This document shows positions 33,901 through 39,900 of a stretch of DNA of 64,000 bases, one piece after another. The DNA is taken from assembly GCA_030324005.1 (NCBI GenBank), contig JARDVH010000084.1, forward strand, positions 92,031,849 through 92,095,848. Reading direction: 5' to 3'. The position numbers were made by a program. The stretch's first letter is position 1, and the number at the start of each line of letters is the position of its first letter. The DNA comes from Negaprion brevirostris. Taxonomy: Eukaryota.

Positions 33901-36900
33901 TCCTCACCAGTATTTTTGAGTTCTTTAGACAAATTTAGAAGGTCTGAAAATAATAACAAGGTTGTGCTCAATTCGAAGAATTTGTATTAAATGACGCAAG
34001 ACAGGGAATGTTAACTTTGGAATTTTGTATAAGGAATGGGACCCATTCTTGATCTGCATTTTCGATGGTTTGCAACTTCTTTGCTCACTGAGCGAATTAA
34101 TTCAAAGATCAGATCTAAACCATAATAAGGTGGTTTTGCAAAACTTTAAGGGTATATATATATTTTTTTAAGTAAATGACGATAAACAAAGTTGCATGTT
34201 AGGGCCCGACTGGAAGTACTGAAATTGTGCAAACGTAAATAAGACCGACTACGAATACAAAATACGCTTCAGCATCATATTGACTATTTTATTTTCTAAC
34301 CACGTGGGAACTCATTAGTTTGAACGCTAGCTTTCAATTAGGGACAGTAGAAGGAAGCCATATTGAATGTATTAAATTATCCAAGATTGCATACAATTAA
34401 TTAAGAAAAAAAAGATTGAAAGCATACATTTGGCTTTACAATAAACTTTGATTTTCAGTCCAATAATGCTGCATTCGAAAACCTTTTGTCTTATCCCAAT
34501 AGTGTAATAATGTAGTTGGCTATTATTAATTTCAGCTGATCATTGCTGCATGCAGGAGTTGTACAATTTCAGGACAGATTATCACATACGGACCTGGGAC
34601 AGTTCCATCGGATTTTTGCCTGCCTCCAAAGTATAGGCCGTTTTTTCAAAGTCTTCTCCTTTACTTTATTGACAGTGAAGTAATGTATCTCTTGGTATAG
34701 GTTTCCAGTCTGGTAACAAGAAACCATTCGGAACAAAGATAGCAAATGACTTTCAAATGACATATAAATATTACTCTGCATGCAGGAGTTGAAAATCAGT
34801 ATTGCGACGGCAGCAAATTATGGAGATGGAAACTATTTATAGTTGCAAAAGTGTTAATGTTGTTTAACCAATCAGGGGTTTTCACTTTCCAAATTAATTC
34901 ACAGAACAACTCAATAGCTTGGGCCTAATCATGAGAAAACGAGCACGTGGGTTGATTCATATCAGTGAATTCACATCCTCAGTCGGGCATTCATATTTAG
35001 AATCCGTGCATCAGTAACCATGATTGCCAACAAGAAGTAATAAGCTACTTTCCATGGACTGTAATGTGGCTCTTTCAACGTACGAAACAATTGCAGGGAA
35101 AATAATTTGCGCCACAATACTCAAGACTTCGAGTGGTATATTTTGACACATTTTTTTGGTGCACCCACTTCATAGAGGTTAATTAAAAGAGGAACAGATC
35201 GATGTTCTCAGCTGATCTCGCATGCATCTGAATGCTATGAATAATATTTTTATGACAAGTAAACCAGTTAAAGTGTTCACTGTCTCTCTGAAGTTGAATT
35301 CGTTTGTTCTCAACGATCAGTTGAATAACATTTTGCAGAAATTTACATTTATTGCTAAACAGACACTTGTTCTAATTAATAGGGGTGAAAATCCAGCTTT
35401 TGGTGGGTCAGTAGGACAGTAATCATTTTTTCGATACCGATCTTTTTTTTGAATCAAGATGCATGCATGACGCCTAAGAAGAAAATATATGAAAGGTTTT
35501 ACCAGTCTTGTTTTCAAGTGTCGTTTTTTCTACATATAAAAGACAAAATTGTTTCAACGTGCCATCCGATCAATATATCTATTATCAAAAAAAAAACACA
35601 GACAGTATATTTGAGACGAGCTTCGGTCTTTTTTTTCCCCCCTGAATATCTGATCATTGCCCGTTTACAAAACTATCAGTTTCTTTGCACGTCAGTGAAA
35701 GAACACCGCACCATCCCCACTCCACACCATTTCTCCCACCCCCCCCCCACTACCCCCCACTTCCCTTGCCCACCCCTCCAAAAAACCCACACAGAAATTC
35801 CAAAGAAATGTTTTATTGCCCACTTTGGAAAACAATTAACGTCTAAATACCAGCTTTTGACTGAAGTGCACGCAAATTACATTTAAAGAAACTAATGTAT
35901 GAAGAAAATCGCAACACAATTGGAAAAAGGAAGAGGGGAAACAGTAAATATTTGCATATCTGGATCTCTCACTTATTCACTTCAGAAGATACATGTGAGG
36001 TTATTCACTTTGCAAACATGAACCAGAAGGGAGATTGCTACATAAGTAACTGTAACAGGGGAGAGGGAAGTGTTCAGCGGGACCAGGGAGTCCTTGTGCA
36101 CCAGTTGCTGAAGATCAGCACTCAGTAAATAAGGCAGCTGCATGTTGGCCTTCATTGCGAGAGATTTCTAGTACAACTGCAAGAAAGTGCTGCTGCATTT
36201 CTATAGGGCTTTGTGAGGCCACACCGCGGATATGGTTTGCAGTTTTGTTCTCCCTTTTTTAGGAATGATGTTGTTACACTCGAAGAAGTACAGCAAACGT
36301 TTCGTTATCTGATTCGCGGGATGGTGGGACTGATGTATGAAAACAGATTGACTAGGTTGGAATTGTTTTCACTGGGGTTCATACAAACCTGGGGGATTGC
36401 GTAGAGACTCATACAATTTTAACTTGACTAGGCGTGTAGATGCAGGAAGGGTATTCCTGATGGTAGGGGAGTCTAGAACCAGGGGTCGTAGTCTTAGGAT
36501 TCGGGGTAGACTATTTAGGACGGAGATGAGGAGACATTTCTTCACCCAAAGTGTGGTGATCCTGTGGAATTCGTTTCCACAGGAAGTAATTAATTCTAAA
36601 ACATTGAATGTATTCACGAGGTGGCTGGATATAACACTTGGCGCGAATAGCTTCAACGTTTCTGGGGAGAAAGCAGGATTAGACGTTTGATTTGGACGAT
36701 CACCATGATCGTAATGAATAGCGGAGCAGACTCGTAGGGCCAAGTAACCTTTTCCATCTCCTCCTATCGCTTTTGTTTCTATATTTCTATCATAAATAAG
36801 CTTCATGTAACAAATCGTGTTTTGCATAGAAAAGAAGGTCATCGCATGGGGTGTGCTCAAATCTAAAACGTAAGGCTAGACCGGAGTAAGTAAAGGTTAA

Positions 36901-39900
36901 GAGAGGTGGAAATCACGGTACAAATTGATGCGCTATTGAAAGTATGTAAACGCATATTTTGAGCAAAAATAATCTAAAATGAGAAACATTTGAAAGCTGT
37001 GGATTCAGATAGGCATGTTCATCCGTGTGCACATCTCTAAAAAGAAACTTCGTACAAAGAGAGAACGGTTAACTTGGACTGTTAATGGTCAACATTTTTT
37101 GGCCAGTTTGTGCAGGAAATTCGTCCGAAAATCCTTGGAATAGTGTGTACGACGTTAGTCTCTTCAATGGGGTAAAAGCAATTCAAAGCACGAATAACAG
37201 GACAACGTCTGGTACGGATGGCTTCTCTTTTGAATCAGTGATGGAGCTTTCATGAGAAGCATGCAACTTGATTGAGAGAGATAATAGCAGGCGCAAGTCT
37301 GACACAACAGGGATGGAAAGGATATTTAATCCTTTGGGGAAAACTAGAACTAGGATTTTAATATTTAAAATGAAGGGTTCGGGATTCTACACAGCGACAA
37401 GAAGGTTTTGAGTCTCTCAGGTGGCATTGGACCTGTGGAGCTCCCTGTCTCAAATGCGTTTTAGCTAGTTCGTACTCTCGGTTTCAGGATATATGCAGAT
37501 AGATTCTCAATACATATGTTGCGAAATGATATCAGGGCAGACGGGATATTATTATCAAATCAATCATGGTTTCACTGAAATGCGGAGCCAGCACAAAAGT
37601 CCAAGTGGCCTCCTGTTGTTTCTGATTAGTATGTCTATACTAAATGTTGTTGAAAAGGTTGTCGAAGCAGGAAATAATACCGAGCTCGTTCAATGATGTT
37701 CCATTACATGTTGAAGACGACTATTAGAAATGTGACGTTCTTTCAGAACAATGGATTCCAATGTGAGGTACAGTGCTCAAACTGTAAAATTTCACTCGCT
37801 TATCGAAAAAAAAGTAACTAATTTAGTCCGATGAAGAAAAACAAGCATATTTTGCTTTTTCCAAAATGAGCCGTTTTCCGCCGTTACTGACCGTCGATTC
37901 TCTTGTGCTCTTCAAGCTCTATGTATACATAATATTGTGATATAAGTGCAACTGTGGCTCTGTTTACACATTGTTTTCTCAAAAACACATATATAACTTG
38001 CATAAATATCATAAATCCGTGCTGTTTTTTTTTTATGAGCTTACCCCTGTCTTTCTGCTGAAGCCGCTGTTCTGTTATGGATATATGATCATTCAATTCA
38101 TGTATTATATTTGTATTGAAACAAACATATTAGTTGTGGAATTGTTTCTGACAATCTTCTCGTTACGCATTACTTACTTTTGCAACAATCTCCAGCTTTT
38201 ATCCAGAACCTCGGCCACTGATTATTGCTGGTAAATGTAATAGTTTAACAGTGAAGCTATTTGTTGCGATCAGTGTCTAACTTCCGTCATTCAGAACTGT
38301 GCCCTGTTTGTTTCAGGGACAAACACCCCTACCCTGGTCAGAATGCCGTGAGGTCTTCCTGCACTCGCAATAGTTGAGCAGCTACCCAGGAATGAAAACT
38401 AGGTCAAAACAGCGTCTTCGGACCAAAGCTACAGCGTTTCGAATCTGGATGACTCGTCGGATGACTCCGACGAATGTCCTTCCACAGATGTTGTCAGTTC
38501 TGCTGACATTTTCCAGCGTTTTCTGTTTTAGGTTTTGATTCCAGCAATCGCAACAGTTTGCCTTTATATAACCTAACTTGCTAACTTGAGAGCTTGCTGC
38601 ATTTCAAAGCTTGAGGACCAAACCTGGACTGACTGTTACTTTTACGTTGACCTGCGGCATCTCTGTTCCGTCGAGACGAGTTCCTCGTGTTAATTTCCTT
38701 GCGTCAGTTCAGTATTAATTGAACATATTAAATTAGATAATTTGTTTTAATAATTTTGTGATAAATTGATACGTTTGATGCATTCGCTATGCGACGCAAT
38801 GACGATCATTTGCCTTGGCTCAGGTGGGGTTATAGAATCGTATCTGTTCGCCATAATTCATTTCATTTTAAGCAGCAGTGTGACCTGCCTATGTTGCTTT
38901 TCATCTTTATACTCCCATGTATATAGAGTCCCCACGCCAGATGTCCAGAGTTACACAATTCTGAATTGAACTCATTGATGTAATTTCCATTTAAAGGCTT
39001 CGAAGGGAAAGTGGATGTATTCACAAATGAATATAGGATCAATCAGGTCAGAATTTGTTTTTGCTTCCTGCAGTGCTCCACTTAATGCGCAGATAATAAT
39101 ATTAATCCCTGTCCATTAATTTCAAGTAAACAACCTATCAGTTAGTAAGTTAAGTTATTGCATTCAATCGAACTGATCTACTTGGTGTCTTCTTTGCCAG
39201 TGTTATAAATCGCCCACGTTCTATTGAAAAATAATGAAACACTTTTCAGATCATAATGCATTGTTTTCATGGGGCAGAAGTCCCAGTAATACTCCATGAC
39301 ATAAGGTGTGTACAAATACGTGAAGATGTTTTTTGTACACTTGTGCTGAGGTTAACTTCCGCTTTAGATAGTAATGCAGAGGCAACTGCTTGCAGAGTGC
39401 GGTGGAAATGTTACTGGACATTATTCGAAAACAATAGAGGCAATTAGTTAATTTAACGCCATTAATATCGGTCATAGGAGGAAACAGCCAGCAAAAGAAA
39501 TAAACAGTATGCATCAAATACAATTTGTGGTGTATCTCGCACCCACAGCGCATGCTCGCCCAAAATGGTAGTAAACGATTAATAGAGATGTCTTCCTTTA
39601 CCTTATTTAGTCGTGAAGCCCAAACTACAGTGTTTGATGTTAAACTGCCAATACGGCATTTTATTAACTGTGCATTCCATATTTAAGGAAGCTTGTGATA
39701 TTTTTGGACACAACTTTTATTCGGTTATGTGCTGTGATGGCAAGAGGTATTTGCCAAGCCTTTACCATATTGCTTTATCGAGTACTATTTAACTGTGATT
39801 TAGTATTGTTAATTGGTACAGAAAATGAAACAGTATGAATATTTCTCCTCACCGGTTTCTCTAAGTTCTTTAGATAGGTTTAGCAGGTCTGAAATTGAAG

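What the first reader, a model, noticed from the sequence alone, without database searches (positions are those of the whole stretch)
33908..39888. Two paralogous 36-nt exons show a purifying-selection signature
Seen: 39853-39888 and 33908-33943 are identical at 27 of 36 nt. Six of the 9 differences are synonymous in the phase-1 frame, giving DLLNLSKEL(RE/KN)T. Both have tttcag acceptors and gtgagga donors, while the flanking introns show little obvious similarity. This is the strongest internal evidence that the microexons are or were translated.
Basis: seen in the sequence. Interest (0 to 1): 0.7.

Follow-up and report, generated by a model that had tools for sequence, protein, structure and literature searches.

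The report
Tandem-duplicated 36-base coding microexons
Two 36-base exons about 6 kb apart are old tandem copies inside an unidentified gene built from many tiny in-frame exons, and their differences mostly spare the encoded peptide, which is an ordinary way for genes to grow, seen here in a very regular form.

Summary
On the minus strand, 39853-39888 and 33908-33943 match at 27 of 36 bases. Both have tttcag acceptors and gtgagga donors, only one frame is open in both, and 6 of the 9 differences are synonymous (pN 0.12, pS 0.72, Fisher p 0.0017; simulations 0.001-0.014).

The statement about dissimilar flanks is wrong. The first 50 bases of the downstream intron are as similar as the exon (36/49 against 27/36), and BLAST aligns 425 columns.

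The pair is not isolated. Each 36-nt exon is followed by two candidate 27-nt exons. The three-exon units (39.9-37.5 kb and 33.9-30.5 kb) are colinear tandem copies, and a third partial unit lies at 27 kb. At least 12 candidate microexons of 27 or 36 nt, all open in the same phase, span 62950-1913.

The 27-nt exon pairs show pN about equal to pS. The selection signature therefore belongs to the 36-nt pair alone and rests on nine differences.

Best reading: an old tandem exon duplication in a modular microexon array that encodes charged helical repeats. The gene could not be identified, because exon-by-exon searches found nothing. I scored interest at 0.33, at the low end of moderate.

The parts
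39853..39888 (-). E3: 36-nt phase-1 microexon (the finding's first copy).
   Evidence: Acceptor tttcag and donor gtgagga. The donor score is in the top 0.2% of 3506 GT sites on this strand and the acceptor in the top 1.2% of 3407 AG sites, using my own crude matrix. Only one frame is open.
33908..33943 (-). E4: 36-nt phase-1 microexon (the finding's second copy), paralogue of E3.
   Evidence: 27/36 bases and 9/11 residues identical to E3. Donor in the top 0.3%, acceptor in the top 4.2%.
39487..39852 (-). Intron downstream of E3 that still aligns with the intron downstream of E4. The first 50 nt (39803-39852) are as conserved as the exon.
   Evidence: BLAST 33533-33949 against 39487-39894: 425 columns, 60.5% identity, E = 3e-17. 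Identity by segment, shuffles. No stable RNA fold (z = -0.14).
33533..33907 (-). Intron downstream of E4, the counterpart of 39487-39852.
   Evidence: Same alignments. RNA fold z = +0.66.
38045..38071 (-). C9: candidate 27-nt exon ('Ca' type), 1781 nt downstream of E3.
   Evidence: Aligns in register with C5 and C7 with no gaps. The donor GT(A/G)AGCTC is invariant at 7 of 8 positions. Donor in the top 0.8%, but the acceptor is weak (top 27.5%).
37892..37918 (-). C10: candidate 27-nt exon ('Cb' type), 126 nt downstream of C9.
   Evidence: Found by position and homology to C6, not by an open-frame filter. AG and GT are in register. The acceptor is poor in my matrix (top 57.8%).
31006..31032 (-). 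C5: candidate 27-nt Ca-type exon, 2875 nt downstream of E4. A tandem cag|cag acceptor would give 30 nt (31006-31035).
   Evidence: BLAST 30467-31158 against 37508-38205: 730 columns, 56.8% identity, E = 2.3e-7.
30843..30869 (-). C6: candidate 27-nt Cb-type exon, 136 nt downstream of C5.
   Evidence: Acceptor in the top 1.4%, donor in the top 1.4%. Aligned with C10 and C8.
27180..27206 (-). C7: candidate 27-nt Ca-type exon of a third unit.
   Evidence: Flanks 26496-27085 are colinear with 30336-30899 (609 columns, 57.6% identity, E = 8.6e-8; local score 35 against a shuffle mean of 14.5 and sd 1.5).
27028..27054 (-). C8: candidate 27-nt Cb-type exon, 125 nt downstream of C7.
   Evidence: Its donor has the best score on the strand (12.2). 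Aligned.
42784..42819 (-). E2: 36-nt phase-1 microexon with the same residue pattern as E3/E4, 2895 nt upstream of E3.
   Evidence: Acceptor in the top 0.4%, donor in the top 0.7%, only one frame open. Pattern hydrophobic-x-x-L-x-x-x-L. No flank similarity to the other units.
62915..62950 (-). E1: 36-nt phase-1 microexon of the same pattern, and the most upstream one seen.
3318..3353 (-). E5: 36-nt phase-1 microexon of the same pattern, near the 3' end of the window.
   Evidence: Its splice scores are weaker (acceptor top 4.2%, donor top 7.5%).
1913..1939 (-). C11: candidate 27-nt Ca-type exon, 1378 nt downstream of E5.
   Evidence: 4 of 8 residues identical to C9.. A possible partner exon at 1741-1779 (39 nt) is doubtful.

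Best explanation
E3 (39853-39888) and E4 (33908-33943) are real, or at least formerly real, protein-coding cassette-type microexons of an unidentified gene. The gene lies on the minus strand and crosses at least 61 kb of the window.

The exons arose by an old tandem duplication of a roughly 6-7 kb segment. That segment carried three microexons: one of 36 nt, then two of 27 nt separated by a 125-136-nt intron.

Every exon is a multiple of three and starts two bases into a split codon. Nearly all end in G and begin with A, so the junction codon reads Asp or Glu. Any exon can therefore be added, lost or skipped without breaking the frame.

Each 36-nt exon encodes 12 residues with the pattern acidic-hydrophobic-x-x-Leu-x-x-x-Leu-x-x-Ser/Thr/Cys. 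The 27-nt exons encode 9 mostly charged residues.

Inferred function: together they make a roughly 30-residue unit of a charged, largely helical (coiled-coil or single-helix) rod, and its length grows by unit duplication.

After the duplication, silent sites and most of the intron drifted towards saturation. The peptide of the 36-nt exon was kept by purifying selection, and the splice signals were kept too, possibly with about 50 nt next to the donor.

Shown:
- the paralogy
- the colinear three-exon units
- the frame and length regularity
- the bias towards synonymous changes

Inferred:
- that the exons are spliced and translated
- the helical rod
- selection on the donor-proximal intron
For: 1. 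Synonymous bias between E3 and E4. S = 8.33 and N = 24.67 sites, with 6 synonymous and 3 non-synonymous differences. pS = 0.72, pN = 0.12, Fisher p = 0.0017. Placing 9 random substitutions gave an open frame with 3 or fewer non-synonymous changes in 0.08-1.4% of 20,000 trials per setting (kappa 1-4, either parent).
2. Transition bias. The exon differences are 7 transitions and 2 transversions. The adjacent intron shows 4 and 9, so the intron gives no reason to assume a high kappa.
3. Non-synonymous sites (3/25) are less diverged than the alignable intron (139/337), p = 0.0016. Synonymous sites (6/8) are not less diverged.
4. Splice signals. Both donors are among the 11 best of 3506 GT sites on the strand.
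5. The exon family is not chance. Four 36-nt AG..GT open candidates passed my splice thresholds on the minus strand, and all four carry the Leu pattern. In 300 strand-shuffles the counts were 0 (189), 1 (90), 2 (19) and 3 (2), and 0 of 300 had a candidate with the pattern. The plus strand had 1 candidate, without the pattern.
6. Colinear three-exon units. Exon columns are free of gaps (0/54), while the intron between them has 19 gap columns of 124, p = 0.001. Splice-site columns are the best conserved (donors 7/8 and 5/8 invariant).
7. The unit has only two copies in the window. The next nhmmer hit has E = 0.4.
Against: - No transcript, protein or orthologue supports any of these exons. Every exon-level search came back empty.
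- The selection test rests on nine differences.
- The exon as a whole is no better conserved than the first 50 intron bases (27/36 against 36/49, p = 1.0).
- It is only marginally better conserved than the whole alignable intron (27/36 against 198/337, p = 0.07).
- The other exon pairs of the same duplication show no selection signature: C9/C5 have pN 0.49 and pS 0.55, C10/C6 have pN 0.46 and pS 0.44.
- Three of those exons are open in all three frames, and several have poor acceptors in my matrix.
- E1, E2 and E5 resemble E3/E4 only in architecture and a loose residue pattern (2-4 of 11 residues identical).
- The strand is A-rich, which by itself favours Lys/Glu/Asn/Gln-rich open frames.
- My splice matrix was built from recalled consensus frequencies and was not trained on this organism.
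Confidence: 0.62

Rival explanations
1. A short, more recent copy or gene-conversion tract. About 100-150 nt (acceptor, exon and the start of the downstream intron) was homogenised between two older units and has since drifted neutrally. The synonymous excess would then be a small-sample accident.
For: - The exon (75%) and intron +1..+50 (73.5%) are equally similar.
- Both are more similar than the rest of the unit: +51..+370 is 162/288 = 56% (p = 0.028 for +1..+50 against the rest).
- The region around the 27-nt exons is about 57% identical.
- The upstream intron loses similarity within about 60 nt.
Against: - Under neutral drift from a common tract, silent sites should match the intron (about 26% divergence). 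They are 72% diverged, while replacement sites are 12% diverged (Fisher p = 0.0017).
- The difference between silent sites and intron +8..+50 gives p = 0.04.
- Without the 7-nt donor consensus, the proximal intron (29/42) is not significantly better conserved than the rest (p = 0.13), so a distinct tract is itself not established.
Confidence: 0.14
2. E3 and E4 are mutually exclusive alternative exons. Each transcript takes exactly one of them, giving two versions of the same 12-residue segment.
For: They share the same length, the same phase, conserved GT-AG splice patterns and clear sequence similarity. These are search criteria A-C for mutually exclusive exons in PMC3228551 (passages read). 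Met.
Against: - They are not neighbouring exons if C9 and C10 are real. Two candidate exons lie between them, and the same paper requires neighbours.
- The length is a multiple of three, so including both keeps the frame.
- The intervening introns are long, and both exons use ordinary GT-AG sites, so nothing enforces exclusion.
- No convincing complementary docking and selector arms were found in 33000-43200. The best pair touching an exon is 24 nt at 75% complementarity.
- The wider array looks like a series of repeats, not a choice cluster.
Confidence: 0.08
3. The intervals are not translated. They are exons of a non-coding transcript, or unspliced relics of a segmental duplication, and the open frames come from chance and A-rich composition.
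For: - No homologue was found.
- The 27-nt pairs evolve with pN about equal to pS, and their bodies are no more conserved than the intron: 37% and 30% invariant columns against 32%.
- Several are open in all three frames.
Against: - All five 36-nt exons are closed in frame 0, three of the five are closed in frame 1, and all five are open in the shared phase.
- Exon lengths are held at exactly 36 or 27 nt in every copy, while the introns are full of indels (0/54 against 19/124 gap columns, p = 0.001).
- E3/E4 show the synonymous bias.
- 0 of 300 shuffles gave even one candidate with the residue pattern.
Confidence: 0.12
4. The 36-mer belongs to a dispersed transposable element that happens to offer splice sites.
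For: The window is rich in repeats: SINE-like copies, LINE fragments, and one 36-nt AG..GT candidate at 41942-41977 that sits inside a repeat copy.
Against: - The unit occurs exactly twice in the window, in the same orientation and colinear with neighbouring exons.
- No Pfam transposon domain was found in the open frames around or next to the exons.
- The genome-wide copy number could not be checked here.
Confidence: 0.04

Closest known systems
Tandem exon duplication within a gene (reviewed in PMC9013439; I saw only the search listing and the start of the abstract)
   Same: Two adjacent, same-strand exons of identical length and phase, with retained splice sites, sequence similarity and colinear flanks. 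Duplication here extends to a multi-exon segment.
   Different: The duplicated unit holds three microexons, and the array has at least 12 candidate exons. There is no evidence that the copies are alternatives to each other.
Mutually exclusive exon clusters (criteria in PMC3228551, passages read; PMC5740500 seen as a listing only)
   Same: Same length, same reading frame, same splice-site type, homologous sequence.
   Different: The exons are not neighbours if the two 27-nt candidates between them are real. The length is divisible by three. No mechanism for exclusion is seen, and usage could not be tested.
Schistosome micro-exon genes (PMC10526429; I saw only the start of the abstract: short exons of 3-81 bp regularly interspersed with long introns, secreted products)
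   Same: A gene body made of very short exons, here all multiples of three, separated by much longer introns.
   Different: The host organism is different and undetermined. No signal peptide or flanking exons were seen. Here the exons form higher-order 36+27+27 repeats, and there is no evidence for variable splicing or secretion.
Structural genes with one repeat per exon or exon group, such as titin PEVK, nebulin, elastin and non-fibrillar collagens with 27- and 36-nt exons (recalled, not from any call)
   Same: Arrays of short in-frame exons expanded by tandem duplication, with protein length set by exon number. The 27- and 36-nt sizes and the phase-1 split codons recall collagen and elastin genes.
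   Different: No Gly-X-Y was found. The five (G-X-Y) runs of four or more in the six frames are low-complexity, and none is bounded by AG..GT. The composition is acidic, basic and Leu-rich, unlike elastin or PEVK, and no match to any family was obtained.
Regulated vertebrate microexons with conserved flanking introns (recalled general knowledge; the listing did not give a paper that I read)
   Same: Very short symmetric exons, strong donors, and a donor-proximal intron as conserved as the exon.
   Different: 36 nt is above the usual 27-nt cut-off. No TGC occurs in the last 40 nt upstream of either acceptor (sequence printed; the motif itself is recalled). Tissue regulation is untestable here.

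Membership tests
Tandemly duplicated exons of one gene | Same strand, same length, same phase, both with usable splice sites | tested here: met
   Both are 36 nt on the minus strand, with the same single open frame, tttcag and gtgagga. Donors are in the top 0.2% and 0.3%.
Tandemly duplicated exons of one gene | Sequence similarity beyond chance, extending colinearly into the flanks | tested here: met
   A gapless 76-nt stretch at 76% identity. BLAST E = 3e-17 over 425 columns. +1..+50 beats 200/200 shuffles. Neighbouring exons are colinear.
Coding sequence under purifying selection | Replacement changes rarer than silent changes per site | tested here: met
   pN 0.12 against pS 0.72, Fisher p = 0.0017, simulations 0.0008-0.014. 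This is based on only 9 differences, and it is not met by the C9/C5 and C10/C6 pairs of the same units.
Coding sequence under purifying selection | Exon better conserved than the adjacent intron | tested here: not met
   27/36 against 36/49 for +1..+50, p = 1.0. Against the whole alignable intron, p = 0.07.
Mutually exclusive exon cluster (PMC3228551) | About the same length, conserved splice pattern and frame, sequence similarity | tested here: met
Mutually exclusive exon cluster (PMC3228551) | [quoted passage not shown] | tested here: not met
   Candidate exons C9 and C10 lie between E3 and E4. This depends on those candidates being real.
Mutually exclusive exon cluster (PMC3228551) | [quoted passage not shown] | not testable with these tools
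   No transcript data are available.
Dispersed transposable element | Many copies in unrelated contexts, or transposon protein domains | tested here: not met
   Two copies in 64 kb, with the next nhmmer hit at E = 0.4. No Pfam match above cut-off in the surrounding frames. The genome-wide count was not testable.
Collagen-type genes with 27- and 36-nt exons | Gly-X-Y triplets in the short exons | tested here: not met
   None of the 12 exons has them. The 5 runs found in six frames are not bounded by AG..GT.
Micro-exon genes of the schistosome type | Gene body of very short exons separated by long introns | tested here: met
   12 candidate exons of 27 or 36 nt, with introns of 125 nt to 23.7 kb.
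Micro-exon genes of the schistosome type | Signal peptide, secreted product, variable exon usage | not testable with these tools
   The ends of the gene lie outside the window, and there are no transcripts.

The most novel reading that the evidence does not exclude
The window lies inside a gene that current protein collections do not hold. Its body would be a long array of symmetric 27- and 36-nt microexons, built by repeated duplication of a 36+27+27-nt unit of 30 residues. That would be a non-trematode counterpart of micro-exon genes. Any subset of exons could be spliced in frame, so one locus could produce a graded family of helical rod proteins of different lengths. The 36-nt exons would carry the constrained contact motif and the 27-nt exons would be freely evolving spacers.
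Probability: 0.18. Interest if true: 0.6.

Novelty: new member of a known kind. Interest (0 to 1): 0.33.

Why it matters
For annotation, exons of 27-36 nt separated by kilobases are routinely missed by gene predictors. Here, internal paralogy gives a way to find them without transcripts. The analysis turned one pair into an ordered series of 12 candidate exons with a fixed phase.

For evolution, the locus shows within a single duplication that one exon class (36 nt) has kept its peptide. The two neighbouring classes have kept only length, phase and splice sites. This is a clean small example of different constraints on modules of a repeat protein.

It does not change any general view. Tandem exon duplication and repeat-per-exon genes are well known.

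Tried and rejected
**Gene identification, exon by exon**
- I then sent the 47-residue stop-to-stop frame around E3. It found 13 word-sharing candidates, none with E up to 10, and only proteins of 84-2000 residues were searched.
- The full scan of 1.84 billion representatives gave 1 hit (E = 2.6e-4). It is a repetitive 190-residue predicted protein that aligns mainly to the intronic part of the query, so I treat it as spurious.
- PDB gave one hit at E = 1.1 to a designed protein for E3 and none for E2.
- Pfam on 10 frames holding the exons gave 2 sub-threshold matches (14.9 and 14.3 bits against cut-offs of 27) and 8 with nothing.
- Rfam and tRNA scans found nothing.
- Seven literature searches were run. 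The three aimed at the gene (36-nt exon arrays, 30-residue repeats, triadin gene structure) gave no lead.

**Leads from memory only**
Calpastatin helix motifs, triadin, LUZP2, LRRFIP and collagen non-collagenous domains came to mind. None could be tested, apart from the absence of Gly-X-Y, and I claim none of them.

**Further copies**
- A possible third copy of the E unit at 38536-38577 (E = 0.4) has no exon-like frame or splice sites.
- 45518-45544 lacks splice sites.
- 33670-33696 has poor splice scores, and its E3 counterpart has stops and no donor.
- 41942-41977 is closed in the shared phase and lies in a repeat copy.
- Profile scans found no further E, Ca or Cb exons.

**RNA structure**
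- 140-nt folds around both exons are no more stable than shuffles (z = -0.14 and +0.66).
- Inverted-repeat pairs in 33000-43200 look like chance or repeats.

**Flank significance**
A semi-global alignment test of the flanks was uninformative beyond +150.

Full report
**1. The observation**

Both intervals read as exons on the minus strand.
- 39853-39888 (E3) and 33908-33943 (E4) are identical at 27 of 36 bases.
- Each is preceded by tttcag and followed by gtgagga.
- Only one of the three frames is open in both. It consists of two bases that finish a split codon, then 11 codons, then one base.
- The nine differences are 7 transitions and 2 transversions. By the Nei-Gojobori count they are 6 synonymous and 3 non-synonymous.
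11 of the 12 candidate exons described below end in G.

The similarity is far beyond chance.
- A gapless 76-nt stretch (33874-33949 against 39819-39894) is 76% identical.
- The window-against-itself BLAST gives 425 aligned columns at 60.5% identity, E = 3e-17.

**2. The flanks are not dissimilar**

In a MAFFT alignment of the two loci:

| Segment | Identity |
|---|---|
| Exon | 27/36 (75%) |
| Downstream intron +1..+50 | 36/49 (73.5%) |
| +51..+100 | 60% |
| Later 50-column bins | 50-60% |
| +1..+370 overall | 198/337 |

Local-alignment scores against 200 dinucleotide shuffles:
- +1..+50 gives z = 12, with 0 of 200 shuffles as good.
- +51..+420 gives z = 3.1, with 2 of 200 as good.
- Upstream -7..-60 gives z = 2.9, with 3 of 200 as good.
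- Upstream -7..-400 shows no similarity, with 196 of 200 as good.

Without the 7-base donor consensus that stretch is 29/42. This is not significantly above the remaining alignable intron at 162/288 (p = 0.13). The region does not fold more stably than shuffles (z = -0.14 and +0.66).

**3. Is the synonymous excess meaningful?**

- S = 8.33 and N = 24.67 sites give pS = 0.72, pN = 0.12 and Fisher p = 0.0017.
- I placed nine random substitutions on either exon. The frame stayed open with at most three replacement changes in 0.08-0.27% of 20,000 trials at kappa 1. The figures were 0.3-0.65% at kappa 2 and 0.8-1.4% at kappa 4.
- The neighbouring intron shows 4 transitions to 9 transversions, so it gives no ground for a high kappa.
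- Replacement sites (3 of 25) are less diverged than the alignable intron (139/337, p = 0.0016). Silent sites (6 of 8) are, if anything, more diverged (p = 0.058).

The pattern fits an old duplication. Silent sites and distant intron have drifted, and the peptide has been kept. The whole test rests on nine differences.

**4. The pair is part of something larger**

I scored splice sites with a crude matrix built from recalled vertebrate consensus frequencies. I then listed AG..GT intervals that are open in some frame.
- On the minus strand, four 36-nt candidates passed: 62915-62950, 42784-42819, E3 and E4.
- All four are open in the same phase and share the pattern hydrophobic-x-x-Leu-x-x-x-Leu.
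- In 300 strand-shuffles the number of candidates was 0 (189), 1 (90), 2 (19) or 3 (2). None carried the pattern. The plus strand had one candidate, without the pattern.
- A fifth exon of this kind lies at 3318-3353.

Downstream of E3, E4 and 3318-3353, at 1781, 2875 and 1378 nt, lies a 27-nt candidate exon ('Ca' type): 38045-38071, 31006-31032 and 1913-1939.

After the first two, a second 27-nt candidate ('Cb' type) follows across a 126- or 136-nt intron: 37892-37918 and 30843-30869.

A third Ca-Cb pair, 27180-27206 and 27028-27054 with a 125-nt intron, has no 36-nt exon in front of it in the sequence as given.

The three Ca-Cb units align in register. A profile built from them finds just these three in the window, at E of 1e-60 or lower, with the next hit at E = 1.5.

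BLAST shows the units to be colinear:
- 30467-31158 against 37508-38205: 730 columns, 56.8% identity, E = 2.3e-7.
- 26496-27085 against 30336-30899: 609 columns, 57.6% identity, E = 8.6e-8.
- The E3/E4 alignment described above.

E3 and E4 are therefore the first exons of two copies of a three-exon unit (36+27+27 nt, 30 codons) duplicated in tandem. The gene crosses the window from at least 62950 to 1913 on the minus strand.

**5. What the neighbours say**

In the same two units, the Ca pair has pN 0.49 and pS 0.55, and the Cb pair has pN 0.46 and pS 0.44. Every other pair of 36-nt exons also has pN about equal to pS, around 0.4-0.6.

In the three-way alignment:
- The exon bodies are no better conserved than the intron: 37% and 30% invariant columns against 32%.
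- They have no gap columns (0/54 against 19/124, p = 0.001).
- The donor columns are the best conserved, at 7/8 and 5/8.

Several Ca and Cb acceptors score poorly, and three of these exons are open in all frames. The 27-nt exons are thus supported by retained position, length and splice dinucleotides, not by peptide conservation. The selection signature belongs to the E3/E4 pair alone.

**6. Most likely mechanism**

I read this as a modular array of symmetric microexons, grown by tandem duplication of a three-exon unit. Each exon starts two bases into a codon, and 11 of 12 end in G. Ten of the twelve begin with A followed by A, C or G. After a final G that junction codon reads Asp or Glu, so any exon can be added or skipped in frame.

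From the per-exon translations and the assumed exon order, the hydrophobic residues of the E3 unit fall at unit positions 2, 9, 16, 23 and 29. This is roughly a seven-residue spacing amid many charged residues. I take it as a hint of a coiled-coil or single-helix rod. This is inference, not a computed prediction.

All searches were exon by exon.

**7. Rivals**

- **Gene conversion or a short recent copy.** It would explain why the exon and proximal intron are equally similar. It would not explain why silent sites are about six times more diverged than replacement sites.
- **Mutual exclusion.** The pair fits three search criteria of PMC3228551 (passages read). It fails the requirement that the exons be neighbours. 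The length is also a multiple of three, and no docking or selector pairing stands out.
- **A non-coding or relic reading.** It fits the neutral-looking 27-nt exons. It does not fit the strict length and phase retention or the E3/E4 bias.
- **A dispersed repeat.** This is unlikely within the window, where there are only two colinear copies. It could not be checked genome-wide.

**8. Identity and novelty**

The gene stayed unnamed.
- The exon peptides are too short for the large searches.
- The 47-residue open frame around E3 found nothing at E up to 10 among proteins of 84-2000 residues.
- It gave one spurious repetitive hit among 1.84 billion representatives.
- PDB and Pfam gave nothing usable, and there is no Gly-X-Y.
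- Proteins above 2000 residues, eukaryotic genomes and transcripts could not be searched here.
- Supplements of papers were not consulted.

Two assembly gaps lie where further exons might be expected and were left as they are. 28253-28460 is upstream of the third unit, and 40670-40769 lies between 42784 and E3.

The kind of thing is well known: tandem exon duplication and repeat-per-exon genes (PMC9013439, start of abstract seen). The regular 36+27+27 microexon unit is an uncommon but not surprising instance.

**9. Verdict**

- The feature is a real tandem exon duplication with a modest, small-sample signature of purifying selection.
- It sits inside a larger array of microexons.
- I scored interest at 0.33, at the low end of moderate.

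Noticed in passing
24393-24513 and 24630-24750: A 121-nt direct duplicate at 98% identity. The second copy abuts the N run 24751-24972, so this is probably an assembly artefact. It produces two identical-looking 24-nt AG..GT 'exons' (24422-24445, 24659-24682) with very good splice scores, which I treat as false positives.
   Followed up: partly
29084-29274, 41022-41207, 41232-41425, 63340-63534, 4679-4988: Copies of one SINE-like repeat family at 59-72% identity, two of them adjacent at 41.0-41.4 kb. Short fragments also occur at 6682-6748, 28607-28654 and 51168-51235.
   Followed up: partly
60891-61463 (-) and 13072-13590 (+): Retroelement remnants. One is a reverse-transcriptase fragment (Pfam RVT_1, E = 7e-10). 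The other is an open frame with an ALKBH8_N-type match (E = 1e-7). 12874-13153 resembles 19263-19538.
   Followed up: partly
57808-58397: A degenerate tandem array with offsets of about 120, 240, 360 and 480 nt at 63-66% identity. Tandem Repeats Finder did not report it.
   Followed up: no
41954-42317 and 60140-60506; 35989-36733 and 53593-54313: Two further dispersed repeat pairs at 58-59% identity. The first contains a 36-nt AG..GT interval (41942-41977) that looks like an exon but is closed in the array's phase.
   Followed up: partly
51412-51483, 52958-53022, 55220-55288: Short repeats at 84-97% identity. Two of the three (52958-53022 and 55220-55288) lie beside N runs, which suggests that some gaps fall in one repeat family.
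   Followed up: no
21909-22101: An (AC)n microsatellite of about 96 units.
   Followed up: no
31033-31035: A tandem cag|cag acceptor in front of exon C5. It would allow a 27- or a 30-nt version of the exon, differing by one codon.
   Followed up: no
7983-8009, 55004-55033, 56799-56825: Further minus-strand AG..GT intervals of 27-30 nt. They are open in the array's phase, have moderate donors and encode charged peptides, so they may be additional exons of the same gene. They show no paralogy to the three exon classes.
   Followed up: partly
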